Positions 7,353 through 30,412 of a stretch of DNA of 32,000 bases are shown one piece after another. Made by a program: the position numbers and the translations under genes. A model generated the notes under the pieces. The model worked only from the letters and a program-made list of their open reading frames with translations. It was not told where the DNA came from and did not search any database. The DNA comes from Rhodococcus sp. T7. GTDB lineage: Bacteria > Actinomycetota > Actinomycetes > Mycobacteriales > Mycobacteriaceae. The stretch is taken from positions 127,791 to 159,790 of the forward strand of contig NZ_WXYH01000111.1 of NCBI RefSeq assembly GCF_009872365.1, given 5' to 3'. Positions within the stretch are counted from its first letter, which is position 1. Each line of letters starts with the position of its first letter.

Positions 7353-8360
7353 GTGGGCCGCAGCGCGACGGTGGTATCACCGCTGGTGGCCGCCGTTTTT
7401 GCGATGGTGCTGGTGTCGTGTTCCGGCGTCGTCGCGGGGGCGCCGAGCGTCGCGGGGGAAGGTGAGCCGATCTACGGCCTGCCGGTCAGCGAGCACACCC
7501 GCGCGGAGTTGGCCGTCGCCGCCGCGGCCCGCGACCTCGCACCGTGCGGACTGCTCGACGGGGATCTGGTCGCCGCGTTCGGGCAGGTCACCGCGTACGG
7601 ACCCGTCGGCGATCTGTCGACCTGCCACGCCGAACTGGTGCCTGCGCGCGGCACCCCCGCCAACCCCGTCTGGGTCGAGGTGACGGTGGGTGAACGCGAA
7701 ACCACGGAGCGCACCGGCGCGGGGGAGGCGGCGTCGGGAATCGAGGTGCGTTCCGCGGCCGGCGCACTGCCGGGCACGTGCACCCTCTACTTCTCGCTGC
7801 CGCCGGTCCCGGACGCCGCCGCCCCCGGTCGCTGGGGTCATGTGTCGTACCTCGACGGGGCCGGCGGGACGGGCGACTCCGCGGCCGGGGACGACTGCGC
7901 GGAGGCTCGGACGGTACTCGGATCGGTCGTGGGCAGGCTGGGGTCGCCGGTGTCTGGACCGTCGGATATTCCTCTTGCGCAACAGGATCCGTGCCGGGTG
8001 GTCGAGAAGCTGTCCGTCGAGACGTTCACCCCCGGCAGCCGCCCCTTCGAATGCCTCCTGACACTCCGCGGCGGCGCCGAGGCGTCCGTGCAACTGGCGC
8101 TGTCGCCGGAACCGTCGCAGGCCGGCGGCCCCGAAACGGTCGAACTCGACGGCAAGCCGTTCACCTACTTCCGGGACGCGATCGAATGCCACTACTACTT
8201 CTATCCGGGGTCCGTGTTCGACACGAACCTGCCGTCGAGTCCGGTGAGCGAACGGGACAAAATCGGCAACCGGCTGACGGCGTCCGTCGCGGCGTCCGCA
8301 CCTAGCTGCGACGACGCGGAAACGCTGGTGCTCGCCGCGACCGAAGTGTTCGACTACTGA
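7353..8360 (+). CDS. Secreted lipoprotein, 335 aa, two tandem 4-Cys modules (DUF3558-like)
   Basis: GTG at 7353 is preceded by GAGGAGAGAG. The signal peptide ends in the lipobox L-V-S-C (Cys23). This is only the 3' third of the track's 1011-aa ORF (5325..8360); the upstream part is antisense to leuA. Confidence 0.75.
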   Translation: MGRSATVVSPLVAAVFAMVLVSCSGVVAGAPSVAGEGEPIYGLPVSEHTRAELAVAAAARDLAPCGLLDGDLVAAFGQVTAYGPVGDLSTCHAELVPARGTPANPVWVEVTVGERETTERTGAGEAASGIEVRSAAGALPGTCTLYFSLPPVPDAAAPGRWGHVSYLDGAGGTGDSAAGDDCAEARTVLGSVVGRLGSPVSGPSDIPLAQQDPCRVVEKLSVETFTPGSRPFECLLTLRGGAEASVQLALSPEPSQAGGPETVELDGKPFTYFRDAIECHYYFYPGSVFDTNLPSSPVSERDKIGNRLTASVAASAPSCDDAETLVLAATEVFDY

Positions 8361-8361
8361 G

Positions 8362-8712
8362 ATGAACACACAGGTCGATGTCGCCCGGGCCTACCTGGAC
8401 GCGTTGCTCAGCCACGACGGCAACTCGGTGCCCATCGAACCCCGGGCCGTGCGATACGAGATGGGGCTGAAGACGGCGTTCTCCGGAAATCACCTGCGCC
8501 GAAGCCTGTCCGGCGGTCCGCAGTACCGGGTGATCCGGTCGATCCGCGACTGCGTGTGGACGGTCGACGGCGACGACGTCACCGTCGACTACCTCCTCGA
8601 CGCCGGACTCCTCGGCCGCACCCTCGCGACGGTCCGGGTGGTCGAGACGTTCCGGATCCCGCCGCATGACCTGCGCATCCACCGCATCGACGCGAAGATC
8701 CGGCGCCCCTGA
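8362..8712 (+). CDS. Small NTF2/SnoaL-like fold protein (116 aa), function unknown
   Basis: The ATG lies 1 nt after the lipoprotein stop, suggesting coupled translation. The N-terminus VARAYLDALLSHDG and the size are typical of SnoaL-like proteins. The family call rests on pattern recognition only. Confidence 0.55.
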   Translation: MNTQVDVARAYLDALLSHDGNSVPIEPRAVRYEMGLKTAFSGNHLRRSLSGGPQYRVIRSIRDCVWTVDGDDVTVDYLLDAGLLGRTLATVRVVETFRIPPHDLRIHRIDAKIRRP

Positions 8713-8753
8713 GCGGTAGCTTCCGATCGGGCTGTCGCGCTGGGACTTCCGGC

Positions 8754-8797
8754 ACGTGAGTGGCAAAGTGTGCTCCCGCACGCTTTGCCACTCACGT
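8754..8797. repeat. Palindromic REP-like element, copy 1 (probable bidirectional terminator)
   Basis: ACGTGAGTGGCAAAG (8754-8768) and CTTTGCCACTCACGT (8783-8797) are perfect reverse complements, and the stem extends into the 14-nt spacer. It lies between convergent gene ends (8712 and 8803). A second copy is at 22158-22197. Confidence 0.8.
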
Positions 8798-8802
8798 ACC
8801 CG

Positions 8803-9768
8803 TCAGGCGAGTGTTTCGTGCGCTGCGGGAACGGAACCCAGGCGGCCGGCCTGGAAGTCCTCGAACGCCTGCAGCACCTCGGCCTTGGTGTTCATGACGA
8901 ACGGTCCGGCCATCGCGACGGGCTCGCGGATCGGCTTGCCGCCGAGGACGAACACCTCGAACGACTCGGTCCGCGAATCCTGCGTGTCGGCCGCGGCGAT
9001 CGTCAGGGTGTCACCGCGCCCGAAGACGGCGGTCTGACCCATGCGGATCGGCCGGCGCTCGGATCCGACGAGTCCGTCGCCCGCGAGGACGTAGGCGAGC
9101 GCGTTGAACTCGGGGTTCCACGGCAGCGTCAGGCTCGCACCCGGCGCGACCGTCGCGTGCACGAGGCTGATCGGCGTGTAGGTGGACCCGGGACCGTGGT
9201 GACCGCCCACGTCACCGGCGATCACGCGAACGAGGGCGCCGCCGTCGGGCGAGGACAGCAGGGCCACCTTCGCGCCGGTGATGTCCTGGTAGCGGGGTGC
9301 GGCCATCTTGTTGTCGCGCGGCAGGTTCACCCACAACTGGACGCCGTGGAACAGGCCGCCGCTCGTCACCAGGTGCTCGGGCGGGGTCTCGATGTGCAGG
9401 ATGCCGCCACCCGCGGTCATCCACTGGGTGTCGCCGCCGCCGATGGTGCCGCCGCCGCCGTTGGAATCCTGGTGCTCCATGATGCCGTCGATCATGTAGG
9501 TGACGGTCTCGAAGCCGCGGTGCGGATGCCACGGTGTGCCCTTGGGTTCACCGGGTGCGTAGTCGACCTCGCCCATCTGGTCCATGTGGATGAACGGGTC
9601 GAGGGCCGACAGGTCGATGCCGGCGAACGCGCGGCGCACCGGGAAGCCTTCACCCTCGTACCCGACGGGTGCGGTGGTGAGCGAACGGACCGGGCGGTCG
9701 ACGGCGCCGGGAGCAGGTGCGTCGATACGCGGCAGGGCAAGGATGTTGTCGACCGTCACGGCTGGCAT
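8803..9768 (-). CDS. Pirin family (bicupin) protein, 321 aa
   Basis: Contains HPHRGFETVTY, QWMTAGGGILHIE and GVQLWVNLP motifs. SD GAGGAGA lies 7 nt upstream of the ATG. Confidence 0.88.
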   Translation of the reverse strand: MPAVTVDNILALPRIDAPAPGAVDRPVRSLTTAPVGYEGEGFPVRRAFAGIDLSALDPFIHMDQMGEVDYAPGEPKGTPWHPHRGFETVTYMIDGIMEHQDSNGGGGTIGGGDTQWMTAGGGILHIETPPEHLVTSGGLFHGVQLWVNLPRDNKMAAPRYQDITGAKVALLSSPDGGALVRVIAGDVGGHHGPGSTYTPISLVHATVAPGASLTLPWNPEFNALAYVLAGDGLVGSERRPIRMGQTAVFGRGDTLTIAAADTQDSRTESFEVFVLGGKPIREPVAMAGPFVMNTKAEVLQAFEDFQAGRLGSVPAAHETLA

Positions 9769-9789
9769 GGGGTGTCTCCTCGTACTCAG

Positions 9790-9809
9790 GTAATTGATTG
9801 TTCAACTAC
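9790..9809. promoter_or_regulatory. AT-rich imperfect palindrome upstream of pirin (candidate operator/promoter)
   Basis: GTAATTGA-ttgt-TCAACTAC has 8-nt arms with 1 mismatch. It is the most AT-rich spot in this neighbourhood, 22-41 nt upstream of the pirin ATG. Confidence 0.3.
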
Positions 9810-9848
9810 TTCATGCTGTGTAACACCCGCGGGGGAAATAAATTCCCC

Positions 9849-9888
9849 GTGCGCCTTTCTGGTAGCTGCAGCAACCAGAAAGGCGCAC
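9849..9888 (-). terminator. Intrinsic terminator after the DUF732-like lipoprotein gene
   Basis: GTGCGCCTTTCTGGT (9849-9863) and ACCAGAAAGGCGCAC (9874-9888) form a perfect 15-bp stem with a 10-nt loop, 14 nt past the stop. On the minus strand it is followed by GGGGAAUUUAUUUCCCC. Confidence 0.65.
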
Positions 9889-9901
9889 GGGCGCGAAGCG
9901 C

Positions 9902-10315
9902 CTAGTTGAGGACGTTCTCGTGGTCCGGGCAGTACCGCGTGATCGCGCCGATGATGTACGGGTAGACGCCGTCGTTGGTGAGCATCGGCGTCCACTCCTC
10001 ACGCACCTGGTCGAGGGGCTTGCCCGCGTCGAGGGCGGTGCAGATCTCGCCGGCCTGATGCACCGCCAGGTCGTCGTCGGTGACGGTCTGGTTGTTCGCG
10101 CGCAGGTAGGCCAGGTAGTCGGCGGCCGTCTGCGGGTCGTCGGCGACCGCGAACACTCGGCTGCCGGGGGCTGTGGCGGCGGTCGTCCGCGCCGCCACGG
10201 ACGCCGAGGCGGACGTGGTCTCGGATGCTGAGGTGTCGGTGTCGCCACCACCGCAGGCGGTGAGGAGTGCCGCGGAGCAGACGGTGAGGGCGGTCAGAGC
10301 AAGGGTGCGGCGCAT
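9902..10315 (-). CDS. Lipoprotein, DUF732-like, 137 aa
   Basis: The signal peptide has the lipobox L-T-A-C (Cys21), followed by a Thr/Ser/Ala-rich linker and a C-terminal domain with two Cys (EICTAL, RYCPDH), as in mycobacterial DUF732 proteins. It lies 95 nt downstream of the PKS on the same strand. Confidence 0.7.
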   Translation of the reverse strand: MRRTLALTALTVCSAALLTACGGGDTDTSASETTSASASVAARTTAATAPGSRVFAVADDPQTAADYLAYLRANNQTVTDDDLAVHQAGEICTALDAGKPLDQVREEWTPMLTNDGVYPYIIGAITRYCPDHENVLN

Positions 10316-10409
10316 GGGGCGTGTGATTCCTTTCGAGGCCTGTGACGGCGACGATCGTATCGCCTGCGGGGCCGGTGTTCCCGGCGGCGATCACCCACGC
10401 TGTTCCCGG

Positions 10410-20987
<10,578 letters not shown>

Positions 20988-22157: not shown

Positions 22158-22197
22158 GTGAGTGGCAAAGCGTCCCGGGGGACACTTTGTCACTCAC
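22158..22197. repeat. Palindromic REP-like element, copy 2 (inverted relative to copy 1)
   Basis: GTGAGTGGCAAAG (22158-22170) pairs with CTTTGTCACTCAC (22185-22197), with one mismatch. The reverse complement of this copy aligns with copy 1 at about 38 of 44 positions. It lies between convergent gene ends and overlaps the last 3 codons of the regulator gene. Confidence 0.8.
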
Positions 22198-22864
22198 GTG
22201 GGGAGTCGATCCGCACGCAGCAGTACCCCTCGGCCGGGGCCAGAGTCGCGTGGCGGTCCTCGCAGCCCGCGCCGTCGAGCAGCCCGGACAGCAGTGCGAG
22301 GTTCATCCCGCACACCATGTCGGTGTGCTGCCGGGCGAGCGCATGGAACGGGCAGTTGACCAGCACGATGGTCCCGTCGCTGCTCCGCGGTTCGTAACCG
22401 CACTCCGCGAGCGCCGCGGTCAGGTCGTCCTCCGAGCAGCCGAGGTCGGCGCCGAGGCCGCGCCCGAAGTCGTGCGCCCGCGCGGACAGGGCGTCGCGCG
22501 GAGAGGCGCCGGTCGCGTCGGCGTCTTCGATCGCCCGCGCGAACAGCTCGCCGGCGAGCGCGTACGTGCGTTCGGGGAGGTGCACCGCGAACTCGCGGTC
22601 GGACCGCCGGTACAGCTTGGCGGGTCGTCCCGCGCCCGGTCCCGAGCGCCCGCCGCGCCGCGCGAACTCGACCGCCAGCAGTCCCTCGTCGGCCAGTTTC
22701 TCGAGATGGAACGCGGACGTCGAGCGGGCGAGACCCAGCGCCTCGGCGACGTCGTCGCGGCTGACGGGGGACGGCTGCGTGCGCACGTGGTCGTACACCT
22801 GCCTGCGGACCGGTTCGCCGAGGGCGGAGACGGCCGAGACGTCCGAGCGTGGTGTGGCATCCAT
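22190..22864 (-). CDS. Winged-helix transcriptional regulator (ArsR/MarR-like HTH) with Cys-rich C-terminal domain, 224 aa
   Basis: The N-terminal HTH segment reads RRQVYDHVRTQPSPVSRDDVAEALGLARSTSAFHLEKLADEGLL. The C-terminal half carries NCPFH, CGMN, GC and CC motifs (7 Cys in the last 85 aa). Confidence 0.65.
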   Translation of the reverse strand: MDATPRSDVSAVSALGEPVRRQVYDHVRTQPSPVSRDDVAEALGLARSTSAFHLEKLADEGLLAVEFARRGGRSGPGAGRPAKLYRRSDREFAVHLPERTYALAGELFARAIEDADATGASPRDALSARAHDFGRGLGADLGCSEDDLTAALAECGYEPRSSDGTIVLVNCPFHALARQHTDMVCGMNLALLSGLLDGAGCEDRHATLAPAEGYCCVRIDSPRE

Positions 22865-22889
22865 GAGCCCATTGTAAAACTCAGAATCG

Positions 22890-22922
22890 TTGACTAAATT
22901 GCGCGCGGAATTCTATAGTCAA
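22890..22922 (+). promoter_or_regulatory. Promoter (TTGACT-18 nt-TATAGT) overlapped by inverted repeat TTGACTA / TAGTCAA; candidate operator of the adjacent regulator
   Basis: -35 TTGACT is at 22890-22895 and -10 TATAGT at 22914-22919, upstream of the 22950 gene. TTGACTA (22890-22896) and TAGTCAA (22916-22922) are exact reverse complements. The region is strongly AT-rich for this genome. Confidence 0.55.
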
Positions 22923-22949
22923 AGAACATAGTTTTTAGAAGGAGTCATC

Positions 22950-23387
22950 ATGGCTACCAACACACCCCACCAGGTCAGCCACGGTTCGCACACCCTGTCC
23001 GAACCCGGCTACCAGGCCTTTCTCGTGCTGCGCACGGTCTTCACGGTGGCACCCATCCTGTTCGGGCTCGACAAGTTCACGAACTGGCTCACCGACTGGC
23101 CCCAATATCTGGCGCCGTGGATCGACGACATCCTGCCGGGCACCGCGCAACAGGGCATGTACGTCGTCGGCGTGATCGAAGTGATCGCCGGAATCCTCGT
23201 CGCCGTGGCACCGCGGATCGGCGCCTGGGTCGTCGTCGCCTGGCTGGCCGGGATCATCGTCAACCTGCTCACGCTGTCCGGCTACTACGACGTCGCACTG
23301 CGCGACTTCGGATTGCTCGCCGGCGCCGCCGCCCTCGGCCTGCTCGCCGCCGAGTACGGGCGCCCGATCCACCGCCCACACACCTGA
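22950..23387 (+). CDS. Small integral membrane protein, DoxX-like, 145 aa
   Basis: Predicted hydrophobic helices (FLVLRTVFTVAPILFGLDKF, MYVVGVIEVIAGILVAVA, AWVVVAWLAGIIVNLL, FGLLAGAAALGLLA). SD GAAGGAG lies 5 nt upstream of the ATG. The family call is tentative. Confidence 0.55.
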   Translation: MATNTPHQVSHGSHTLSEPGYQAFLVLRTVFTVAPILFGLDKFTNWLTDWPQYLAPWIDDILPGTAQQGMYVVGVIEVIAGILVAVAPRIGAWVVVAWLAGIIVNLLTLSGYYDVALRDFGLLAGAAALGLLAAEYGRPIHRPHT

Positions 23388-23436
23388 TCGGAGCCGCGCA
23401 CCGCACGTGAGATGCACCTCATCGACTGTTTCGAGT

Positions 23437-23469
23437 GACACGACCGCTCGTAGGGTGAGTGGTCGTGTC
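23437..23469 (+). terminator. Hairpin after the DoxX-like gene
   Basis: GACACGACC (23437-23445) and GGTCGTGTC (23461-23469) form a 9-bp perfect stem with a 15-nt loop. It overlaps the GTG at 23459 that the ORF track uses as the next gene's start. Confidence 0.4.
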
Positions 23470-25078
23470 GGTAGGTGCGCAGGATCAGGGAACCGGATCG
23501 CGGGATCACGGTGTGCCGATCCCTGCGCCGGCCCCGGCACGGTCTTTGCTTCTCGGAGTGCCCAAGCTGGGTCGGCGCTGGCCGGGTGTGGTCCGTGCCG
23601 GCGTGGCCGTGGGCCTGCCCGCGCTGGCGGGGGTCGCGCTCGGACATTCGGCTGTCGCGGCGACCGCCACCCTGGGGGCGTTCGCCGTCGTCTACGGCGA
23701 GGGCCGCGCATACCGGGTGCGGTGGCGGGTGGTGTCGATCGCCGCTGCCGTGATGGTGCTCCTGGCCGGGGTGGGCGCGGCGGTCGGCGGGTTCGTGCAC
23801 GACCTGACCGCGTCGGGAGGGTCCGCGCTGTGGGGGATGGCGCTCGTCCTCACGATGACCGTGGTCGTCGCCGTCTGCGCCTTCGTCGTCGACGGACTGC
23901 GACTTGGCGCGCCGGGCGCCTTCCTTCCGCTGCTCACCGTGGAGATCGCGTCCGCGCTGCCCGCGCTCGGTGTCGGCGTGGCGGAGGTGGTCGTCTGGGC
24001 GGCGGTCGGCGCGTTGTCGGCGTTGCTCGTGTCGATGTCGGGACTGATCGTTCGTCCCCGCACCCCCGAGCGTGCCGCGGTCGCGACCGCGGTCGCTGCA
24101 GTAGACACCGCACTCTCCGACCCGTCGTCGCCCGGTTCCCGGCGGGACGCGGTGCGGTCGCTGCACACCGCCTGGCAATGCCTCCACGACGCCGCCCTCG
24201 TCGGCCGTGATCATCCGCTGACCCGCACGTTGCGTGCGGCGCATCTGCGGTGTGCGGCGACCGTGGACGGTGTCGACGCGGACCATGCCTCGGACGACGA
24301 CGACCTGCGGCCGCAGGTCCCGCTGCCGCGTCCGTCGATCCGCTACCGGCTCCGCCGAGCGTCGCATCTGCGGGGCCGGTCCTGGACGATCGTCGCGCGA
24401 CTGCTGGTCGCGTGCCCCGCGGCCGGTCTCCTGGCGCTGGGCTTCGGTGTCGGCAGGCCCGACTGGGCGGTGATCACCGCGGCAATGATCCTGCACCAGG
24501 GACCGGACCGGGTGCTGGGGACGTACCGCGGGCTGCACCGGTTCTTCGGAACGGTGCTCGGACTGGTCGTGCTCGCCGTGCTGTCATCGCTCGACCTGCC
24601 TGCGGCGGCGCTGGTGCTCGTGGTGGCGGGTCTGATGGCGGGGATCGAGGCGTTCCTCGTCCGCAATTACGGGCTGGCGATGGTGTTCATCACCCCGCTC
24701 GCCCTGGTTCTCGGCAGCCGCGGCACGCACGTGGACCTGACGACGGTGTCCCGCGACCGGCTCGTCGAGACCGTGCTCGGTGTCGCGGTGGCGCTGGTGG
24801 TGCTGTGGACCGTGCTCCCCGGTTCCTACCGGCGGATCCTGAGCGACGCGGACGAGCAGGTGGCCGCGACGATCGGCCGGCTCGGCGACGCCCGGGAACC
24901 GGCTGCCGTCGCCGCACTCCGCCGGGACCTCGAGTTCGACCTGCACGCCTCCACGACCGCCGCGATCACCGCCGCCCACACCGACCCGGCGTGGACCCGC
25001 GACCGGTGGCCCGAGCACCACCACCTTCACGAACTCGGCTACCGAATCCTCAGCCGGCACTTCGGACCTCGCCTTTAG
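23459..25078 (+). CDS. FUSC / aromatic-acid-exporter-like integral membrane protein (about 500-539 aa; start uncertain)
   Basis: Two hydrophobic multi-helix blocks flank a soluble linker. The second block begins GRPDWAVITAAMILHQG...TYRGLHRFFGTVLG, as in FUSC/YccS-type proteins. The true start may be downstream (for example GTG 23513), because 23459 sits inside a hairpin. Confidence 0.6.
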   Translation: MVVSVGAQDQGTGSRDHGVPIPAPAPARSLLLGVPKLGRRWPGVVRAGVAVGLPALAGVALGHSAVAATATLGAFAVVYGEGRAYRVRWRVVSIAAAVMVLLAGVGAAVGGFVHDLTASGGSALWGMALVLTMTVVVAVCAFVVDGLRLGAPGAFLPLLTVEIASALPALGVGVAEVVVWAAVGALSALLVSMSGLIVRPRTPERAAVATAVAAVDTALSDPSSPGSRRDAVRSLHTAWQCLHDAALVGRDHPLTRTLRAAHLRCAATVDGVDADHASDDDDLRPQVPLPRPSIRYRLRRASHLRGRSWTIVARLLVACPAAGLLALGFGVGRPDWAVITAAMILHQGPDRVLGTYRGLHRFFGTVLGLVVLAVLSSLDLPAAALVLVVAGLMAGIEAFLVRNYGLAMVFITPLALVLGSRGTHVDLTTVSRDRLVETVLGVAVALVVLWTVLPGSYRRILSDADEQVAATIGRLGDAREPAAVAALRRDLEFDLHASTTAAITAAHTDPAWTRDRWPEHHHLHELGYRILSRHFGPRL

Positions 25079-25112: not shown

Positions 25113-27086
25113 GTGATGGGTCCTGTGACGGGAATCGGAACAGTATTTCGGGCCTCGTTGGCCGCGGCTCTCTGCGTCGGGGTGCTGGCCGCGTGCTCGT
25201 CGGACGAGGAACCGCAGAGCGATCCGGCGGCCACGTGCGCGGACGTCCCCAACGGCACCCCGGTGTCCAAGGCGCCGCCGCCTCCCGGCCCGGCGCCGAC
25301 CACCCAGAATCTCGCGACCAACCCCGAGATCGCCACCGTGTACCGCTCCGGGATGACGCCCGTGACCACCGCGTCGTACGCGGTCTCCACCGCCAATCCG
25401 GTGTCGACGCAGGCCGCGTGCGAGGTACTCCGGGACGGCGGGACGGCCGCCGACGCGCTGATCGTGGCCCAGACCGTTCTCGGTCTCGTCGAACCGCAAT
25501 CCTCCGGAATCGGTGGCGGCGCGTTCCTGCTCTATTACGACGCCGGGCAGAACAGTGTCGAGGCGTACGACGGGCGGGAGGTCGCGCCGATGGCCGCGAC
25601 GGAGAACTACCTCCGCTGGATCAGCGACACCGACCGCACCGAGCCCAAGCCCGACGCCCGCGCGAGCGGACGGTCCATCGGTGTCCCCGGCGTGGTGCGG
25701 ATGCTCGAGATGGCGCACCGCGACCACGGGCGGGACGCGTGGCGGGAATTGTTCGACCCGGCCATCTCCCTCGCCGACCAGGGCCTCGAGATCAGCCCGC
25801 GGATGGCCGGGCAGATCGCCGAGTCCGCGCCCGACCTGGCCGTCGACGAGCCGTCGAAGGCGTATTTTCTGAACCCCGACGGCAGCCCGAAGCCGGCCGG
25901 GACGAAGCTGACGAACCCGGCCATGGCCAAGACGCTCGGAGCGATCGCCGCGGGCGGCGCGGACGCCTTCTACACCGGGGCCGTCGCCCAGGGCATCGTC
26001 GACGCGACGGCGACCGCGTCGGGCGGCCGCACCCCCGGCCAGATGACTCTCGACGACCTCGCCAACTATCAGGCGAAGAAGCGGACACCGCTGTGCACGC
26101 CGTACCGGGACCACGAGATCTGCGGCATGCCGAACCCCTCGTCCGGTGGCACCGCGGTCGCGGCGACGCTCGGCATCCTGGAGAACTTCGACCTGTCGCA
26201 GTACGGGCCGACGAACCTCGACGACAACGGCGGAAAGCCGACTGCGGAGGCCGTGCACCTCATCTCCGAGGCCGAGCGACTGGCGTACGCAGACCGGGAC
26301 AAGTACGTCGCGGACTCCGATTTCGTTCCACTGCCCGGCAATTCCCTCGACACACTGCTGAACGAGGACTACCTGAAGCAGCGGGCCGCCCTCATCGACC
26401 CGGGCAAGAGCATGGGCACCGCGCAACCCGGCAACTTCGGGCCCGTTCCGCTCGGCGTGCAACCGCAGGACAAGGAACACGGCACCAGCCACATCTCGAT
26501 CGCCGACAAGTACGGCAACGTCGCATCGATGACGACGACGGTGGAATCGGCGTTCGGCTCGTTCCACATGACCGACGGATTCGTGCTCAACAATCAGCTC
26601 ACCGACTTCTCGGCCCAGCCGGTCGGCCCCGACGGCGCGCCCCTCGCCAACCGCGTCGAACCGGGTAAGCGGCCCCGGAGTTCGATGGCGCCGACGCTCG
26701 TCTTCGACCGCGGCAGCGACGGTTCACGCCGCGACGTCCAGTTCGCGACCGGGTCACCGGGTGGTTCGGTGATCATCCAGTTCGTCGTGAAAACGCTCGT
26801 GGGAATGCTGGATTGGGGCCTGAACCCGCAGCAGGCCGTGTCGGCGGTCGACTTCGGGGCGGCCAACACACCGGTCACCGGTGTCGGCGGAGAGCATCCG
26901 AACATCGACGCGGTCAACGACGGCGCGACCGACCCGTTGATCGTGCAACTGCGGGCGATGGGTCACCAGGTGTCGGTCGCGCCGCAGTCCAGTGGGCTCA
27001 GTGCGCTGCAGCGTCAGGACTCGGGGTGGGTCGGCGGCGCGGACCCGCGGCGCGAGGGCGCGGTGATGGGTGACGGGACGGGATAA
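25113..27086 (+). CDS. ggt: Gamma-glutamyltransferase, lipoprotein precursor, 657 aa
   Basis: Lipobox L-A-A-C. GGT motifs include SSGIGGGAFLLYYD, the autoprocessing/nucleophile Thr in EHGTSHISIADKYGN (Thr458 codon at 26484-26486), and PGKRPRSSMAPTLVF. GTG 25113 or ATG 25116 could be the start. Confidence 0.9.
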   Translation: MMGPVTGIGTVFRASLAAALCVGVLAACSSDEEPQSDPAATCADVPNGTPVSKAPPPPGPAPTTQNLATNPEIATVYRSGMTPVTTASYAVSTANPVSTQAACEVLRDGGTAADALIVAQTVLGLVEPQSSGIGGGAFLLYYDAGQNSVEAYDGREVAPMAATENYLRWISDTDRTEPKPDARASGRSIGVPGVVRMLEMAHRDHGRDAWRELFDPAISLADQGLEISPRMAGQIAESAPDLAVDEPSKAYFLNPDGSPKPAGTKLTNPAMAKTLGAIAAGGADAFYTGAVAQGIVDATATASGGRTPGQMTLDDLANYQAKKRTPLCTPYRDHEICGMPNPSSGGTAVAATLGILENFDLSQYGPTNLDDNGGKPTAEAVHLISEAERLAYADRDKYVADSDFVPLPGNSLDTLLNEDYLKQRAALIDPGKSMGTAQPGNFGPVPLGVQPQDKEHGTSHISIADKYGNVASMTTTVESAFGSFHMTDGFVLNNQLTDFSAQPVGPDGAPLANRVEPGKRPRSSMAPTLVFDRGSDGSRRDVQFATGSPGGSVIIQFVVKTLVGMLDWGLNPQQAVSAVDFGAANTPVTGVGGEHPNIDAVNDGATDPLIVQLRAMGHQVSVAPQSSGLSALQRQDSGWVGGADPRREGAVMGDGTG

Positions 27087-27221
27087 TCGATCCGATGGTT
27101 CAGACCCCGATCCGCGGGGAACCCATCGACCATGGCGAACAACGATGTGAACGATCCCCCGGACGGCACCTGGGCGTTCTTCGACCATTCCGAGGGTGCC
27201 ACAGGGAAATAGAGGCCCATC

Positions 27222-28316
27222 GTGCTCGTCAGCGACCCACGGAAAGTGGGGGTCGAAGAGGAATTCCATCTCATCGATCGCAAGACCCGGCGCCTGACCA
27301 CCCGCGCGCCGGAATTGCTGGCACGACTTCCCGACGACGTGTACGTCGACGAACTCCAGCAGTGTGTCGTCGAGGTCAACAGCGGTGTGTATGCCGACCT
27401 CGACGGCCTGCGCAGCGATCTGGAGCGGCACCGGACGGTGCTGATCGACGCGGCCGAGGGACTCGGGATCGGGGTGGCGGCCGCGGGTTCGATGCCGCTG
27501 GCGCTGCCCGCCGAGATGCACGTGACGGGGACGCAGCGCTACCGGCGGATGCTCGCGGACTACCAGATGCTCGCCCGTGAGCAGCTGATCTGCGGCACCC
27601 AGGTTCACGTCGACCTCCCCGACCGTGACGAGGCCGTGCAGGTCGCGCACCGCATCGCCCCGCACATGCCCGTCCTCCTGGCGCTCAGCGCGAGTTCCCC
27701 GTTCCGGTCCGACGGTGCCGACACCGGCTATGCCAGCGCACGGACGCTTCTGTGGTTGCGCTGGCCCAGCACCGGTCCGGCCGCGCCCGTCTCCTCGGCC
27801 GCCGAGTACAGCGCCCTGATCGACGACCTGGTTGCGAGCGGGGTGATCAGCGACCCGGGTATGGCGTATTTCGACGTCCGGCCGTCGGTGAAGCTTCCGA
27901 CCCTGGAATTGCGGGTGTGCGACAGCTGCCCGCGGCTGGACACGGTCATTCTCGTCGCCGCCCTGTTCCGGGCGCTCGTCGAACGCGAGGTGGAGGGTCT
28001 GCGCGCCGGGACCAAGGGCGTCGAGGTGGTCCCGACCCTGACGCGGGCTGCGCTGTGGCGGGCGGCGCGGTCGGGGTTGGAGGGAGACCTCGTCGACGTG
28101 CGGTTTCCGCAGGCGCGTCCCGCGTCGGAACTCGTCGGCGACTTCGTGAACTCGCTGCGACCGCAGCTCGAGCAGACCGGCGACTGGGACACGGTGGTGG
28201 AGCTGTCCGCGGAGGCGTCCGCGCACGGGAGTTCCGCCGCGAGGCAACGTCACGCGCTCGCTCGCCGGGGCCGGCTCACCGACGTCGTCGATCTGCTGCT
28301 CGCGGAGACGGCGGGC
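27222..28316 (+). other. GCS2 (glutamate-cysteine ligase family 2 / carboxylate-amine ligase) domain, aa 1-365
   Basis: See the motifs listed for the CDS. The length matches stand-alone YbdK-like proteins (about 370 aa). Confidence 0.8.
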
Positions 28317-29606
28317 CGCACCGAGCACCTCCCCGAGGTAGAGGCCCCGCCCGCACCGCCGCAGACGGGCCCGACCTCGATCGGTGCTCGCCGGACTCGA
28401 CGGTATTGGAGCGCCAGGCTCTGGGATCGCGGCGACACCGCCGACATGACGTGGACGGAGTCGACGGAGCTCGACGAGAAGAAGCTGATCGAGTGGCGCC
28501 GGGATCTGCACGCGCATCCGGAGTTGTCGTTCGAGGAACGCCGGACCACCGGAATCGTGCGGAACCACCTCGTCGGTCTCGGACTCGAACCCGTCATGTT
28601 GCCCGGCGGCACCGGCCTGTGGTGCGACCTCGGGCCGGAGACGGGTGAATGCGTCGCCCTGCGCGCCGACCTCGACGCACTGCCGGTCGCCGAGACGACG
28701 GGTCTCCCGTTCGAGTCGACGGTCCCCGGGGTGTCGCACGCCTGCGGTCACGACGCGCACACCACGATGCTGATGGGGGCGGCGTCGGTCCTCGTCAGGC
28801 ACCCGCCGACGACCCGGGTCCGGCTCATCTTCCAACCCGCCGAGGAGACGACACCCGGCGGTTCCGTCGACACGATCGCCGCGGGAGCACTCGACGGGGT
28901 GGCGAAGATCTTCGCACTGCACTGCGACCCGCATCTCGAAGTCGGCAAGCTCGCCACCCGGACCGGGCCGATCACGTCGTCCAACGATTCCGTCACCGTG
29001 CGGTTGTGGTCGGCGGGTGGGCACACTGCGCGACCGCACCTGACCGGGGATCTGATCCACGCCGCCGCCGTCCTGGTGACGGGGCTCGCGTCCGTGCTCG
29101 ACCGACGCGTCGACGCCCGCACCGCGACGGTCCTCACCTGGGGCAAGGTGGCCGCGGGGCAGGTCGCGAACTCCGTGCCCGAGTCGGGTGAACTGGTCGG
29201 GACTCTCCGCAGCGCGTCCCGCGAGACGTGGGCCTTGCTCGAACCGCTGGTCACGGACGCGATCTGCCACCTGCTCGCCCCGTACAACGTGCGGTACGAA
29301 CTCTCCTACCGGCAAGGCGTCCCGCCCGTCGTCAACGATCCCGACTGCACCGCCGACCTGCGGGAGGCGATCGAATCGGTGGTCGGCTTCGACCACCTCG
29401 GCGAGGCCCACCAGTCCAGCGGCGGCGAGGACTTCGCCTGGTACCTGGAGAAGGTCCCGGGCGCGATGGCCAGGCTCGGCGTGTGGAACGGCACCGGCAC
29501 ACCCCAGGAGCTGCACCAGCCGGGGTTCAACCTCGACGAACGCGCCATGGTGCACGGGGTCCGGACGCTGGTCGCGCTCACCCGGCTCGAAGACGAGTCG
29601 GAGTGA
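27222..29606 (+). CDS. Single ORF fusing a GCS2-family carboxylate-amine ligase (YbdK-like) to an M20D amidohydrolase, 794 aa
   Basis: GTG 27222 has AGAGG 6 nt upstream. N-terminal half: KVGVEEEFHLID, LICGTQVHV, LALSASSPF, YFDVRPSVKLPTLELRVCD. C-terminal half: WRRDLHAHPELSFEE, SHACGHDAHT, FQPAEE. No in-frame stop occurs between them. Confidence 0.8.
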   Translation: MLVSDPRKVGVEEEFHLIDRKTRRLTTRAPELLARLPDDVYVDELQQCVVEVNSGVYADLDGLRSDLERHRTVLIDAAEGLGIGVAAAGSMPLALPAEMHVTGTQRYRRMLADYQMLAREQLICGTQVHVDLPDRDEAVQVAHRIAPHMPVLLALSASSPFRSDGADTGYASARTLLWLRWPSTGPAAPVSSAAEYSALIDDLVASGVISDPGMAYFDVRPSVKLPTLELRVCDSCPRLDTVILVAALFRALVEREVEGLRAGTKGVEVVPTLTRAALWRAARSGLEGDLVDVRFPQARPASELVGDFVNSLRPQLEQTGDWDTVVELSAEASAHGSSAARQRHALARRGRLTDVVDLLLAETAGRTEHLPEVEAPPAPPQTGPTSIGARRTRRYWSARLWDRGDTADMTWTESTELDEKKLIEWRRDLHAHPELSFEERRTTGIVRNHLVGLGLEPVMLPGGTGLWCDLGPETGECVALRADLDALPVAETTGLPFESTVPGVSHACGHDAHTTMLMGAASVLVRHPPTTRVRLIFQPAEETTPGGSVDTIAAGALDGVAKIFALHCDPHLEVGKLATRTGPITSSNDSVTVRLWSAGGHTARPHLTGDLIHAAAVLVTGLASVLDRRVDARTATVLTWGKVAAGQVANSVPESGELVGTLRSASRETWALLEPLVTDAICHLLAPYNVRYELSYRQGVPPVVNDPDCTADLREAIESVVGFDHLGEAHQSSGGEDFAWYLEKVPGAMARLGVWNGTGTPQELHQPGFNLDERAMVHGVRTLVALTRLEDESE
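28446..29606 (+). other. M20D peptidase / N-acyl-amino-acid amidohydrolase domain, aa 409-794 (begins at an internal ATG)
   Basis: A complete M20D-length unit starts at Met409 (MTWTESTELDEKKLIEWRRDLHAHPE). The metal ligand motifs HACGHD and PAEE are intact. Confidence 0.8.
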
Positions 29607-29680
29607 ACGTCAGGCCGGTTCGACGAGCATTCGGCGCCGTCTTCGCTGCCGGACGAGCACGCTGACCTGCAGGGACTTGC

Positions 29681-29926
29681 TCAGCGGCTGTGCATCTGCG
29701 GCGGATACGGGGGAGTCGGCTCCGGAATCGGCGGACCCGGAGGCGGCGTCGGCCCCGGCGGACCCGGCTGCGGTCCAGGCTCGGGCGGTGCGGGTTCCGG
29801 ACCCGGCTCCGGCGGAAACGGATGCGGCGGTGTCGGCGTCGGCGGCACGGGAGGTGGGCTCGGTGACGGCGGCACCGGCTCCGGGTCGGGCACAGGATTG
29901 CCGTGCTCGTCGCGCGCACTCGCCAT
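29681..29926 (-). CDS. Proline-rich small protein, 81 aa (about 49% Pro)
   Basis: ATG 29926 is preceded by GGAAGGTGG 7 nt upstream. The ORF is dominated by CCG codons (the preferred Pro codon in high-GC actinobacteria). No signal peptide or TM segment. The track's 100-aa version starts further upstream without an SD. Confidence 0.5.
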   Translation of the reverse strand: MASARDEHGNPVPDPEPVPPSPSPPPVPPTPTPPHPFPPEPGPEPAPPEPGPQPGPPGPTPPPGPPIPEPTPPYPPQMHSR

Positions 29927-30103
29927 CGACAGACCACCTTCCGATCGGCTGATTGAGTGGTACCCGGAACGGGCATCCCGCAATCACAGAGCTAGCTGTG
30001 GCCGCCCGGGAACAAAATGCGGGATCGGTGCGTTGTCTAGCAACCGTGCCCCGCAAGTGTGGAATTTCACGACGCGGGGAACATGAGCCAAAGGGAGGAA
30101 GTC

Positions 30104-30403
30104 ATGGCAACCGACTACGACGCACCACGGGTTACCGTCGACGATGAACTCGCCGCGGACTCGCTCGAAGAACTGAAGACACGGAGGAACGACTCGCAGT
30201 CGTCCGTCGTCGACGTCGAGGAGACCGACACGGCGGAGTCCTTCGAACTGCCCGGCGCCGACCTGTCCGGTGAGGAACTCACGGTCCGCGTCATCCCGAA
30301 GAGGGCCGACGAATTCACCTGCAGCAGTTGCTTCCTCGTCCATCATCGGTCGCGTCTCGCGTCCGAAGAGGGCGGGCAGCTGATCTGCCGCGACTGCGCA
30401 TAG
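30104..30403 (+). CDS. DUF4193 family protein (conserved actinobacterial zinc-ribbon protein), 99 aa
   Basis: Starts MATDYDAPR... with an acidic middle region and a C-terminal CSSC...CRDC zinc ribbon. SD AAGGGAGGA ends 4 nt upstream of ATG 30104. Confidence 0.8.
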   Translation: MATDYDAPRVTVDDELAADSLEELKTRRNDSQSSVVDVEETDTAESFELPGADLSGEELTVRVIPKRADEFTCSSCFLVHHRSRLASEEGGQLICRDCA

Positions 30404-30412
30404 GAGGCCCGC

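What the first reader, a model, noticed from the sequence alone, without database searches (positions are those of the whole stretch)
27222..29606. In-frame fusion of a GCS2 carboxylate-amine ligase and an M20D amidohydrolase
One uninterrupted 794-codon ORF carries two complete units:
- A YbdK/GCS2-type ATP-dependent carboxylate-amine ligase (aa 1-365; GVEEEFHLID, QVHV, YFDVRPS...LELRVCD).
- An M20D amidohydrolase (aa 409-794; HACGHDAH, QPAEE).

To my knowledge these are normally separate proteins. The fusion links an amide-bond-forming enzyme (gamma-glutamyl-type ligation) to an amide-bond-hydrolysing enzyme. Possible roles are a coupled make-and-trim or proofreading pathway, or a salvage cycle for a gamma-glutamyl or N-acyl amino acid conjugate. 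Neither substrate can be deduced from the sequence.
Basis: partly seen in the sequence, partly recalled or inferred. Interest (0 to 1): 0.62.

Follow-up and report, generated by a model that had tools for sequence, protein, structure and literature searches.

The report
Ligase–hydrolase fusion from a collapsed operon
This is a real, conserved Rhodococcus gene that joins an amide-forming ligase to an amide-cleaving hydrolase; the two halves come from the first and last genes of an uncharacterised osmolyte-like peptide-amide operon, which makes it a modest but useful clue that the two enzymes work together.

Summary
Window 27222-29606 (+) is one 794-codon ORF with a complete GCS2/YbdK ligase (aa 7-364) and a complete M20D amidohydrolase (aa ~417-786), joined by a ~50-aa linker.

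It is not an assembly artefact. The intact fusion occurs in 26 species genomes of five GTDB genera (R. opacus/jostii group and relatives). Both domains are under purifying selection (dN/dS 0.05-0.28). The linker drifts almost neutrally but never loses frame.

Each half is ~71-72% identical to one end of a four-gene cluster in sister rhodococci: [GCS2-ATP-grasp][NAGGN-type amidotransferase][S9 peptidase][M20D]. Trees place all fusion sequences in one clade beside that cluster. No sampled genome has both forms, and fusion carriers lack the amidotransferase. The fusion therefore arose once, by loss of the ATP-grasp domain and the two middle genes.

An exhaustive scan of 1.84 billion proteins found no second GCS2+M20D lineage.

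Function is inferred only: a stand-alone ligase/deacylase pair acting on an N-capped (probably gamma-glutamyl or N-acyl) amino acid.

Earlier agents of this scan had already described the parent operon on other DNA. The fusion itself is already auto-annotated in databases but is uncharacterised.

The parts
27222..29606 (+). Complete CDS of the 794-aa GCS2-M20D fusion protein (GTG start, TGA stop)
   Evidence: The same-length frame without stops is found in 26 species genomes. Public orthologues begin at the same start (P0002).
27211..27215 (+). AGAGG, a possible Shine-Dalgarno sequence 6 nt before the GTG start (inference only)
   Evidence: Read directly from the sequence. No promoter-like site was found in the 135-nt gap after the GGT gene.
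27240..28313 (+). GCS2/YbdK-type ATP-dependent carboxylate-amine ligase domain (aa 7-364)
   Evidence: NCBIfam PRK13517.1-1 and TIGR02050, Pfam PF04107. 72% identical to aa 7-378 of the R. aetherivorans GCS2-CP_ATPgrasp protein P0014. PDB relatives are YbdK 1r8g and 1tt4. dN/dS 0.055-0.28.
28320..28469 (+). Inter-domain linker (aa 367-416), Pro/Arg-rich and poorly conserved. It contains a non-conserved internal ATG at 28446-28448 (Met409) with no obvious SD.
   Evidence: Alignments: length about 33-55 aa across lineages, only in-frame indels, no stops. dN/dS is 0.4-1.0 in divergent pairs. No detectable similarity to the ATP-grasp 5' end, the S9 3' end or the ATP-grasp tail.
28470..29579 (+). 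M20D (aminoacylase/ILR1/YxeP-type) amidohydrolase domain (aa 417-786), including the satellite domain
   Evidence: TIGR01891 positions 1-365 of 366, PF01546. 71% identical to the M20 gene that ends the R. aetherivorans cluster, P0122 aa 3-372. PDB relatives are YxeP 1ysj (2.8e-66), 4ewt, ILL2 1xmb and N-acyl-glutamine aminoacylase 6slf. dN/dS 0.075-0.175.
28737..28754 (+). HACGHD motif (aa 506-511); Cys508 and His510 are the M20D metal ligands according to general knowledge of the family
   Evidence: Invariant in all 11 fusion proteins, and identical in fusion and cluster forms.
28833..28847 (+). QPAEE motif (aa 538-542); Glu541 and Glu542 are the catalytic base and a metal ligand according to general knowledge of M20 enzymes
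   Evidence: Q538, P539, E541 and E542 are invariant.
25113..27086 (+). Upstream gamma-glutamyltranspeptidase gene: context only, not a conserved partner
   Evidence: PF01019, 7.8e-151. Upstream of the fusion in 18 of 19 carriers in the window's genus. In about half of those it sits about 1.3 kb away, with an opposite-strand gene in between where examined (L022). It is absent from the flanks in the other four genera.

Best explanation
The ORF encodes one ~85-kDa bifunctional protein: an N-terminal GCS2/YbdK ATP-dependent carboxylate-amine ligase and a C-terminal M20D N-acyl-amino-acid amidohydrolase, joined by a disordered, freely evolving linker.

Origin (well supported, by inference from comparison). 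It arose once, in an ancestor within the Rhodococcus group. The source was a four-gene cluster, [GCS2-circularly permuted ATP-grasp][NAGGN-type AsnO amidotransferase][S9 peptidase][M20D], itself a ligase-swapped relative of the NAGGN osmolyte system. The ATP-grasp domain and the two middle genes were lost, and the first domain was joined in frame to the last gene. Selection has since kept both enzymes and the fused frame. Carriers have lost the rest of the pathway, so the protein works on its own.

Mechanism (inferred, not shown). The ligase half makes an N-capped amino acid (a gamma-glutamyl or other N-acyl amino acid) at the cost of ATP. The M20D half deacylates an N-acyl amino acid of the same small pathway. 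Either it frees the amine that the ligase then caps, or it removes the cap to control the product level. Physical linkage keeps the two activities in 1:1 stoichiometry and close together.
For: Real and complete.

Not an artefact: the intact frame occurs in 19 of 41 genomes of the genus and 7 more in four other genera, several on complete chromosomes. Named public orthologues exist in R. opacus, R. jostii, R. koreensis, R. wratislaviensis and R. oxybenzonivorans.

Both halves map to the two ends of one cluster: 72% identity to P0014 aa 7-378 and 71% to P0122.

Trees: in the GCS2 half, all 28 fusion sequences form one clade (SH-aLRT 96). That clade groups with the rhodococcal cluster forms, with mycobacterial forms and G084 outside. 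In the M20 half, fusion and cluster M20 form one clade (100), far from the housekeeping paralog.

Precedent: form B of the cluster lost its ATP-grasp by in-frame deletion and keeps the tail motif NSLRGGGGKDTW.

Exclusive distribution: no sampled genome carries both forms. The own genome and 5 of 5 other carriers lack the TIGR03104 amidotransferase, whereas 4 of 4 cluster carriers have it inside the cluster.

Selection: dN/dS is 0.055-0.28 (GCS2) and 0.075-0.175 (M20). The linker reaches 0.4-1.0, with in-frame indels only and no stops. There are no fixed differences between fusion and cluster forms, and 126 and 172 columns are invariant in all.

Identity of the parent cluster: the AsnB-like gene scores 958 bits on TIGR03104 against a cutoff of 570. 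The canonical NAGGN operon is described in PMC8070244.
Against: The breakpoints cannot be traced. The linker has no detectable similarity to the ATP-grasp, the S9 3' end or the intergenic DNA, so one deletion cannot be told from several steps.

Fusion loci share no flanking genes with cluster loci, so in-situ collapse is not shown. The gene sits in different neighbourhoods in different genera.

In the M20 tree, monophyly of the fusion sequences has only weak support (75).

A ligase and a hydrolase acting on the same bond would burn ATP in a futile cycle. The substrates are unknown.

The AF2 model was too poor (pLDDT 43) to say anything about domain contacts.
Confidence: 0.7

Rival explanations
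1. Assembly or sequencing error: a stop codon or frameshift between two adjacent genes was lost in this draft assembly.
For: The genome is a 393-contig draft with 6.7% contamination. Reads could not be inspected.
Against: The same uninterrupted 776-797-aa frame occurs in 25 other species genomes, including complete chromosomes, and in about 10 public protein clusters. Linker indels are always in frame.
Confidence: 0.01
2. Independent gene fusion. A GCS2 gene and an M20D gene that were not part of one cluster were brought together by rearrangement or transfer, and the resemblance to the four-gene cluster is only shared ancestry of each family.
For: No flank synteny links fusion and cluster loci. 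The linker origin is untraceable. The fusion gene sits in different contexts in different genera.
Against: For both halves the nearest non-fusion relatives are the first and last genes of the same cluster, not the other 5 GCS2 or 5+ M20 paralogs in the genome. The two forms are mutually exclusive in the genomes sampled. G084, which branches outside in both trees, already has GCS2-ATPgrasp and M20 in one cluster.
Confidence: 0.12
3. Decaying relic. After the pathway was lost, the fusion is a leftover in which one or both domains are no longer functional.
For: Carriers lack the amidotransferase, the ATP-grasp and the S9 peptidase of the parent pathway. One relative (G056) retains only a stand-alone M20.
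Against: dN/dS is 0.05-0.28 in both domains at saturated dS. The catalytic motifs are invariant, and no stops or frameshifts occur in 26 genomes across five genera.
Confidence: 0.05
4. One ORF, two products. In this genome the M20D half is also (or mainly) translated separately from the internal ATG at 28446 (Met409), so the hydrolase acts as a free ~42-kDa enzyme.
For: An in-frame ATG lies 8 codons upstream of the point where homology to stand-alone M20 begins. It is conserved in the closest 16 relatives.
Against: There is no Shine-Dalgarno-like sequence before it. The Met is replaced by Leu, Pro or other residues in the remaining fusion lineages. The codon aligned with the ancestral M20 start is no longer a start codon in any lineage. 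Preservation of the frame through a neutrally drifting linker argues that the fused product is what selection sees.
Confidence: 0.1

Closest known systems
Ligase-swapped NAGGN-like operon of Actinomycetota: [GCS2-circularly permuted ATP-grasp][TIGR03104 AsnO-type amidotransferase][S9 peptidase], plus an M20D gene in rhodococci
   Same: Both halves of the fusion are 71-72% identical to the first domain and the last gene of the rhodococcal four-gene version, and group with them in trees.
   Different: The fusion lacks the ATP-grasp ligase, the amidotransferase and the S9 peptidase, and its carriers lack them genome-wide. It cannot make a dipeptide amide. The parent operon is itself uncharacterised.
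Canonical NAGGN osmoprotectant system (AsnO / Ngg / aminopeptidase; P. aeruginosa PA3459-PA3461, S. meliloti asnO-ngg)
   Same: The parent cluster's amidotransferase is an equivalog-level match to AsnO. The overall logic matches: a capping and peptide-forming ligase, an amidotransferase and a peptidase (PMC8070244).
   Different: There is no GNAT/ATP-grasp Ngg and no AsnO in this genome. The capping enzyme here is an ATP-dependent GCS2 ligase rather than an acetyl-CoA-dependent GNAT. No link to osmotic stress has been tested.
E. coli YbdK (PDB 1R8G) and the GCS2 family of carboxylate-amine ligases
   Same: Full-length family match. The conserved GS-fold acidic, His and Arg positions (EEE 12-14, E51, H129, R220, E229, R231) are invariant.
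   Different: YbdK is a stand-alone ~372-aa protein with weak gamma-Glu-Cys ligase activity and no known physiological substrate. Here the domain is fused to a hydrolase. Equivalog-level glutamate-cysteine ligase models are not reached.
M20D amidohydrolases: B. subtilis YxeP (1YSJ), Arabidopsis ILL2 (1XMB), Corynebacterium N-alpha-acyl-glutamine aminoacylase (6SLF), mycobacterial AmiA1
   Same: Full-length TIGR01891 match with the HxCGHD, xxEE and His motifs. These enzymes remove N-acyl groups from amino acids.
   Different: They are stand-alone ~390-aa enzymes. The genome's AmiA1-like housekeeping copy is only 57% identical and is a separate lineage. The substrate of the fused copy is unknown.
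Bifunctional GshF/GshAB (gamma-glutamylcysteine ligase fused to an ATP-grasp glutathione synthetase), recalled from general knowledge
   Same: It is a domain fusion that joins consecutive enzymes of a gamma-glutamyl peptide pathway. The parent GCS2-ATP-grasp protein has the same logic.
   Different: GshF fuses two ligases. This protein fuses a ligase to a hydrolase, an architecture found in only one 50%-identity cluster among 1.84 billion representatives.

Membership tests
GCS2 / YbdK carboxylate-amine ligase (PF04107, TIGR02050) | Full-length profile match above the curated cutoff | tested here: met
   PF04107: 172.9 bits (cutoff 21), aa 9-286, model positions 1-291 of 291. TIGR02050: 267.7 bits (cutoff 176.4). 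PRK13517.1-1: 345 bits (cutoff 332), aa 7-364.
GCS2 / YbdK carboxylate-amine ligase (PF04107, TIGR02050) | Conserved GS-fold active-site acidic, His and Arg residues | tested here: met
   E12-E14, E51, N53, Q127, H129, R220, E229 and R231 are invariant in 11 fusion proteins, and these columns do not differ from the cluster forms. The roles of these residues are taken from the literature (PMC2588565), not verified here.
GCS2 / YbdK carboxylate-amine ligase (PF04107, TIGR02050) | ATP-dependent ligation of a carboxylate to an amine | not testable with these tools
   Needs an enzyme assay.
Bona fide glutamate-cysteine ligase (the usual database label) | Equivalog-level match to a characterised gamma-GCS model | tested here: not met
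   NF010043: 257 bits against a cutoff of 409. NF010042: 189 against 427. NF010044: 173 against 437. TIGR02048 gshA_cyano: 36 against 249. Only a subfamily-level model passes, so the label 'glutamate--cysteine ligase' is not supported as a specific function.
M20D amidohydrolase / aminoacylase (TIGR01891, PF01546) | Full-length profile match above the curated cutoff, including the satellite domain | tested here: met
   TIGR01891: 314.8 bits (cutoff 153.75), aa 422-778, model positions 1-365 of 366. PF01546: 130.9 bits (cutoff 24.6). Best PDB relative is YxeP, 2.8e-66.
M20D amidohydrolase / aminoacylase (TIGR01891, PF01546) | Metal-binding and catalytic motifs (Cys/His in HxCGHD, Glu-Glu, two further His) | tested here: met
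   C508, H510, E541, E542, H567 and H765 are invariant across the fusion proteins. Ligand roles are taken from general knowledge of the family.
M20D amidohydrolase / aminoacylase (TIGR01891, PF01546) | Specific characterised subfamily (CpsA carboxypeptidase, DoeB2 deacetylase) | tested here: not met
   NF040868: 278.5 bits against a cutoff of 500. NF038260: 236.9 against 550.
NAGGN-type (or ligase-swapped NAGGN-like) peptide-amide system | AsnO-type amidotransferase (TIGR03104) present | tested here: not met
   The best hit in the own genome is 358 bits against a cutoff of 570. None was found in 5 of 5 other fusion carriers at E <= 1e-100. It is present in 4 of 4 cluster carriers.
NAGGN-type (or ligase-swapped NAGGN-like) peptide-amide system | Peptide-forming ligase (Ngg TIGR03103, or an ATP-grasp fused to the GCS2) | tested here: not met
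   No Ngg is present. The two CP_ATPgrasp genes in the genome lie elsewhere, and no GCS2 outside the fusion exceeds 41% identity to it.
NAGGN-type (or ligase-swapped NAGGN-like) peptide-amide system | Descent of the gene from a member operon | tested here: met
   Both halves group with the operon's genes. The fusion is therefore a derivative of the system, not a member of it.

The most novel reading that the evidence does not exclude
The fusion is a self-contained 'cap and uncap' enzyme. It would be a minimal module, distilled from the NAGGN-like pathway, in which an ATP-driven ligase and an aminoacylase on one chain set the cellular level of a single gamma-glutamyl or N-acyl amino acid (a one-step compatible solute or nitrogen buffer). 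Alternatively it would carry out a deacylate-then-religate exchange of N-caps. Identifying its product would also reveal the first chemical step of the widespread, still uncharacterised actinobacterial ligase-swapped NAGGN-like operon.
Probability: 0.2. Interest if true: 0.6.

Novelty: new variant of a known kind. Interest (0 to 1): 0.4.

Why it matters
Both enzyme families are well known and the gene is already in public databases, usually under the unsupported name 'glutamate--cysteine ligase'. The gene itself is therefore not a discovery.

What is new is its history. It is the only GCS2+M20D lineage detectable among 1.84 billion representative proteins, and it is a reduced derivative of an uncharacterised, widespread actinobacterial variant of the NAGGN osmolyte operon.

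As a 'Rosetta stone' fusion it argues that the GCS2 ligase and the M20D hydrolase of that operon act on the same small molecule. It also shows that this pair is worth keeping when the rest of the pathway is lost.

That gives a simpler, single-protein entry point for finding the substrate of an orphan pathway. R. jostii RHA1 and R. opacus are tractable laboratory strains. The case also gives a clean natural series of operon reduction: four genes; four genes with the ATP-grasp deleted in frame; one fused gene; M20 alone.

Tried and rejected

2. Structure prediction on the 11-sequence alignment gave mean pLDDT 43 and pTM 0.31. That is too poor to use, so no fold search was run.

3. Origin of the linker. 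blastn-short of the linker DNA against the 240 nt after the GCS2 domain and the 236 nt before M20 in 14 cluster loci gave only scattered 11-14-nt matches. The 'TWT' resemblance to the ATP-grasp tail motif GGGKDTW was not better than shuffled linkers (p 0.07-0.99). Rejected.

4. Apparent intermediates in G056 and G084, where M20 matches ran upstream across a stop. These were alignment over-extension. G056 has a normal stand-alone M20 start, and the upstream part in G084 is about 23% identical.

5. Synteny between fusion and cluster loci. The 454-aa gene upstream in R. olei is unrelated to the genes upstream of the cluster. An all-against-all comparison of flanking ORFs found only antisense shadow ORFs inside the genes themselves.

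6. GGT as a functional partner. The adjacency is limited to the window's genus and is often interrupted by an opposite-strand gene, so it is not used as evidence.

7. A second fusion at the M20D paralog on contig C24 (774-aa open frame). It is two tandem M20 genes overlapping by 4 nt.

8. Rfam and the promoter/terminator scans around the gene found nothing.

9. Literature. No paper on the fusion, the accessions or the cluster was found in the held library. The Iyer et al. 2009 amidoligase survey is not held.
Full report
**Observation.** Window 27222-29606 (+) is a single ORF of 794 codons with a GTG start and no internal stop. Its third-position GC is 0.89, like the neighbouring genes.

Pfam finds GCS2 at aa 9-286 and Peptidase_M20 at aa 479-786. 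NCBIfam gives end-to-end matches above curated cutoffs for both units. The YbdK-type ligase subfamily model PRK13517.1-1 matches aa 7-364, covering 5-365 of 368 positions. The M20D 'amidohydrolases' model TIGR01891 matches aa 422-778, covering 1-365 of 366 positions.

**Is it an artefact?** No. A search limited to proteins of similar length found ten public 90%-identity clusters with the same two-domain architecture (776-797 aa, 72-99% identity) in Rhodococcus and Prescottella species.

In whole genomes, 19 of the 41 species representatives of the window's GTDB genus carry the full-length frame without stops. Seven genomes in four other genera of the family carry it too, several on complete chromosomes.

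Named carriers include R. opacus, R. jostii, R. koreensis, R. wratislaviensis and R. oxybenzonivorans. The usual label is 'glutamate--cysteine ligase', and some pipelines write 'amidohydrolase/YbdK family carboxylate-amine ligase'.

The comparative evidence makes that check unnecessary for the question asked.

**Where the two halves come from.** The next-best relatives of the ligase half (about 70% identity) are ~870-aa proteins in which GCS2 is fused to a circularly permuted ATP-grasp.

In R. aetherivorans that gene heads a same-strand cluster: GCS2-ATPgrasp, an Asn-synthase-like gene, an S9 peptidase and an M20 amidohydrolase. Fusion residues 7-378 are 72% identical to residues 7-378 of the first protein. 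Residues 417-786 are 71% identical to residues 3-372 of the last protein.

Across 15 fetched loci the cluster exists in three forms:
- Form A has all four genes.
- Form B has the same genes but a stand-alone GCS2.
- Mycobacterium and Mycolicibacterium have a three-gene form without M20.

Form B GCS2 proteins still end in NSLRGGGGKDTW, the extreme C-terminal motif of the ATP-grasp domain. Form B therefore arose by an in-frame internal deletion of that domain, a precedent for this kind of event in the same gene.

**Phylogeny and distribution.** In a tree of the ligase half, all 28 fusion sequences form one clade (SH-aLRT 96). That clade groups with the rhodococcal cluster forms, with mycobacterial sequences and G084 outside.

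In a tree of the hydrolase half, fusion and cluster M20 sequences form one clade (100). A long branch separates them from the housekeeping M20D paralog that every genome of the genus also has. The fusion sequences fall on one side of a branch, but with weak support (75).

G084 branches outside in both trees and already has the four-gene form. The four-gene cluster is therefore ancestral and the fusion is derived.

In the 301-genome family sample no genome has both forms.

**What the parent cluster is.** The cluster's Asn-synthase-like protein is an equivalog-level, full-length match to TIGR03104, N-acetylglutaminylglutamine amidotransferase (958 bits, cutoff 570). The parent is thus a variant of the NAGGN osmolyte system, whose canonical operon is AsnO, Ngg and an aminopeptidase (PMC8070244).

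Earlier agents of this scan reached the same reading of the three-gene operon on other genomes. I had obtained the TIGR03104 result independently before seeing their notes.

The window's genome has no protein above the TIGR03104 cutoff and no Ngg. Five of five fusion carriers in other genera also lack the amidotransferase, while four of four cluster carriers have it inside the cluster. The fusion is what remains after the rest of the pathway was lost, and it does not work with those enzymes in trans.

**Is it still functional, and is the fusion itself selected?** Pairwise dN/dS is 0.055-0.28 for the ligase half and 0.075-0.175 for the hydrolase half, at dS up to and beyond 1.

For the linker (aa 367-416), dN/dS rises to 0.4-1.0 in divergent pairs. 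Linker length varies from about 33 to 55 residues, yet every indel is in frame and no lineage has a stop.

Catalytic motifs are invariant. No column is fixed differently between fusion and cluster forms, and 126 of 366 and 172 of 376 columns are invariant in all. So there is no sign of a change in specificity.

The codon aligned with the ancestral M20 start is no longer a start codon in any lineage. The internal ATG at 28446 in this genome lacks a Shine-Dalgarno sequence and is not conserved outside the closest relatives. Selection therefore acts on a single fused polypeptide.

**How unusual is the architecture?** phmmer of the whole protein against 1.84 billion representatives at 50% identity returned exactly one protein that matches across both domains (P0010, 780 aa). 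All other top hits are single-domain. A second fusion with even moderately similar domains would have ranked high because domain scores add. Very divergent fusions could still be missed.

**Context in the window.** A gamma-glutamyltranspeptidase gene lies 135 nt upstream on the same strand. It is upstream in 18 of 19 carriers of the genus. In about half of them it is about 1.3 kb away, with an opposite-strand gene in between where examined (L022). It is absent near the fusion in the other genera. I therefore do not treat it as a partner.

No promoter-like, terminator-like or Rfam element was found around the gene.

**Mechanism (inference).** Three points are shown:
- The two complete enzymes are intact.
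- They descend from one cluster.
- The fused frame is maintained.

The rest is inferred. In the parent pathway the GCS2 domain occupies the place of the capping step of Ngg, making an N-capped amino acid with ATP. M20D enzymes typically remove N-acyl groups from amino acids; the structural relatives include YxeP and an N-acyl-glutamine aminoacylase.

The fused pair therefore most likely handles one N-capped (gamma-glutamyl or N-acyl) amino acid, in one of two ways:
- Sequentially: the hydrolase frees the amine that the ligase caps.
- As opposed activities that set the product level.

A plain futile cycle on one bond is unlikely to be selected, which favours the sequential reading or a regulated one. 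I cannot distinguish these from sequence.

The database name 'glutamate--cysteine ligase' is not supported, because all equivalog-level gamma-GCS models fall far below their cutoffs.

**Limits.**
- The breakpoints are untraceable, so one deletion cannot be told from several.
- No flanking gene is shared between fusion and cluster loci, so collapse in place is not demonstrated. The gene may have moved, or spread by transfer, after it formed.
- The structure prediction failed.
- No expression or biochemical data exist in the held literature.

**Verdict.** This is a real, conserved, single-origin bifunctional gene and a reduced derivative of a ligase-swapped NAGGN-like operon. It is a new variant of known kinds and is already present, but mislabelled and unstudied, in public databases. 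Interest is moderate. Its main value is as a Rosetta-stone link and a simple experimental handle on an orphan actinobacterial pathway.

Noticed in passing
L057-L064 (genus g10 cluster loci), compared with L012: Within the parent cluster, the ATP-grasp domain of the GCS2-ATPgrasp gene has been removed by in-frame deletion. The remnant tail motif (NSLRGGGGKDTW) is eroded to different degrees in different species: SRRGGRDTWTVTG, then ETAGGGDTWTG, then gone. AsnO, S9 and M20 are retained, so the pathway apparently tolerates loss of its second ligase.
   Followed up: partly
L066 (G056:C7:60000-69718), M20 at 8322-9446: One relative keeps only a stand-alone M20 of the cluster lineage (70% identical to the cluster M20). 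It has no GCS2, AsnO or S9 nearby and no TIGR03104 in the genome. This is a fourth reduction state of the cluster.
   Followed up: partly
window 10410-20987 (-): A 3525-aa type I polyketide synthase with two modules (two copies each of KS, AT, KR and ACP, DH domains, and an N-terminal docking domain). It is flanked by a DUF732 protein and a methyltransferase gene.
   Followed up: no
window 26754-29555 (-): A 933-aa antisense ORF overlaps almost the whole fusion gene. It is a high-GC shadow frame, not a gene, and such shadow ORFs even give cross-genome BLAST hits.
   Followed up: yes
window 29607-30412: About 800 nt downstream of the fusion has lower GC (0.60-0.67) and no ORF with coding-like GC3. 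Only short ORFs without Pfam hits are present (29610-30056 -, 29984-30346 -, 30059-30403 +).
   Followed up: no
L002 (G000:C24:44-4153): Two tandem M20-family genes (386 and 387 aa, overlapping by 4 nt) lie next to an lpdA-like gene. From memory this resembles the mycobacterial lpdA-amiA1-amiB1 arrangement. The second gene is the 57%-identical housekeeping paralog of the fusion's hydrolase half.
   Followed up: partly
G000 contigs C103:768-1838 and C323:530511-531581; C282:3969-4997 and C323:7401-8429: Pairs of places in the assembly give identical scores to the same query segments. This suggests duplicated contigs or redundancy in this 393-contig, 10.7-Mb draft (contamination estimate 6.7%).
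   Followed up: no
L010 / L011 (6771-7913, just upstream of the fusion at 8001-10346): In one fusion-carrying lineage (genus g28) a stand-alone 380-aa GCS2 paralog sits immediately upstream of the fusion. The pair lies between a HisKA_3 kinase gene and a GerE-type response regulator gene, inside the gatCA-pfk-gatB region.
   Followed up: no
window 22190-25078: Upstream of the GGT gene lie an HTH_20 regulator (-), a DoxX-like membrane protein (+) and a FUSC_2 (fusaric-acid-resistance-like) membrane protein (+). No link to the fusion was found.
   Followed up: no
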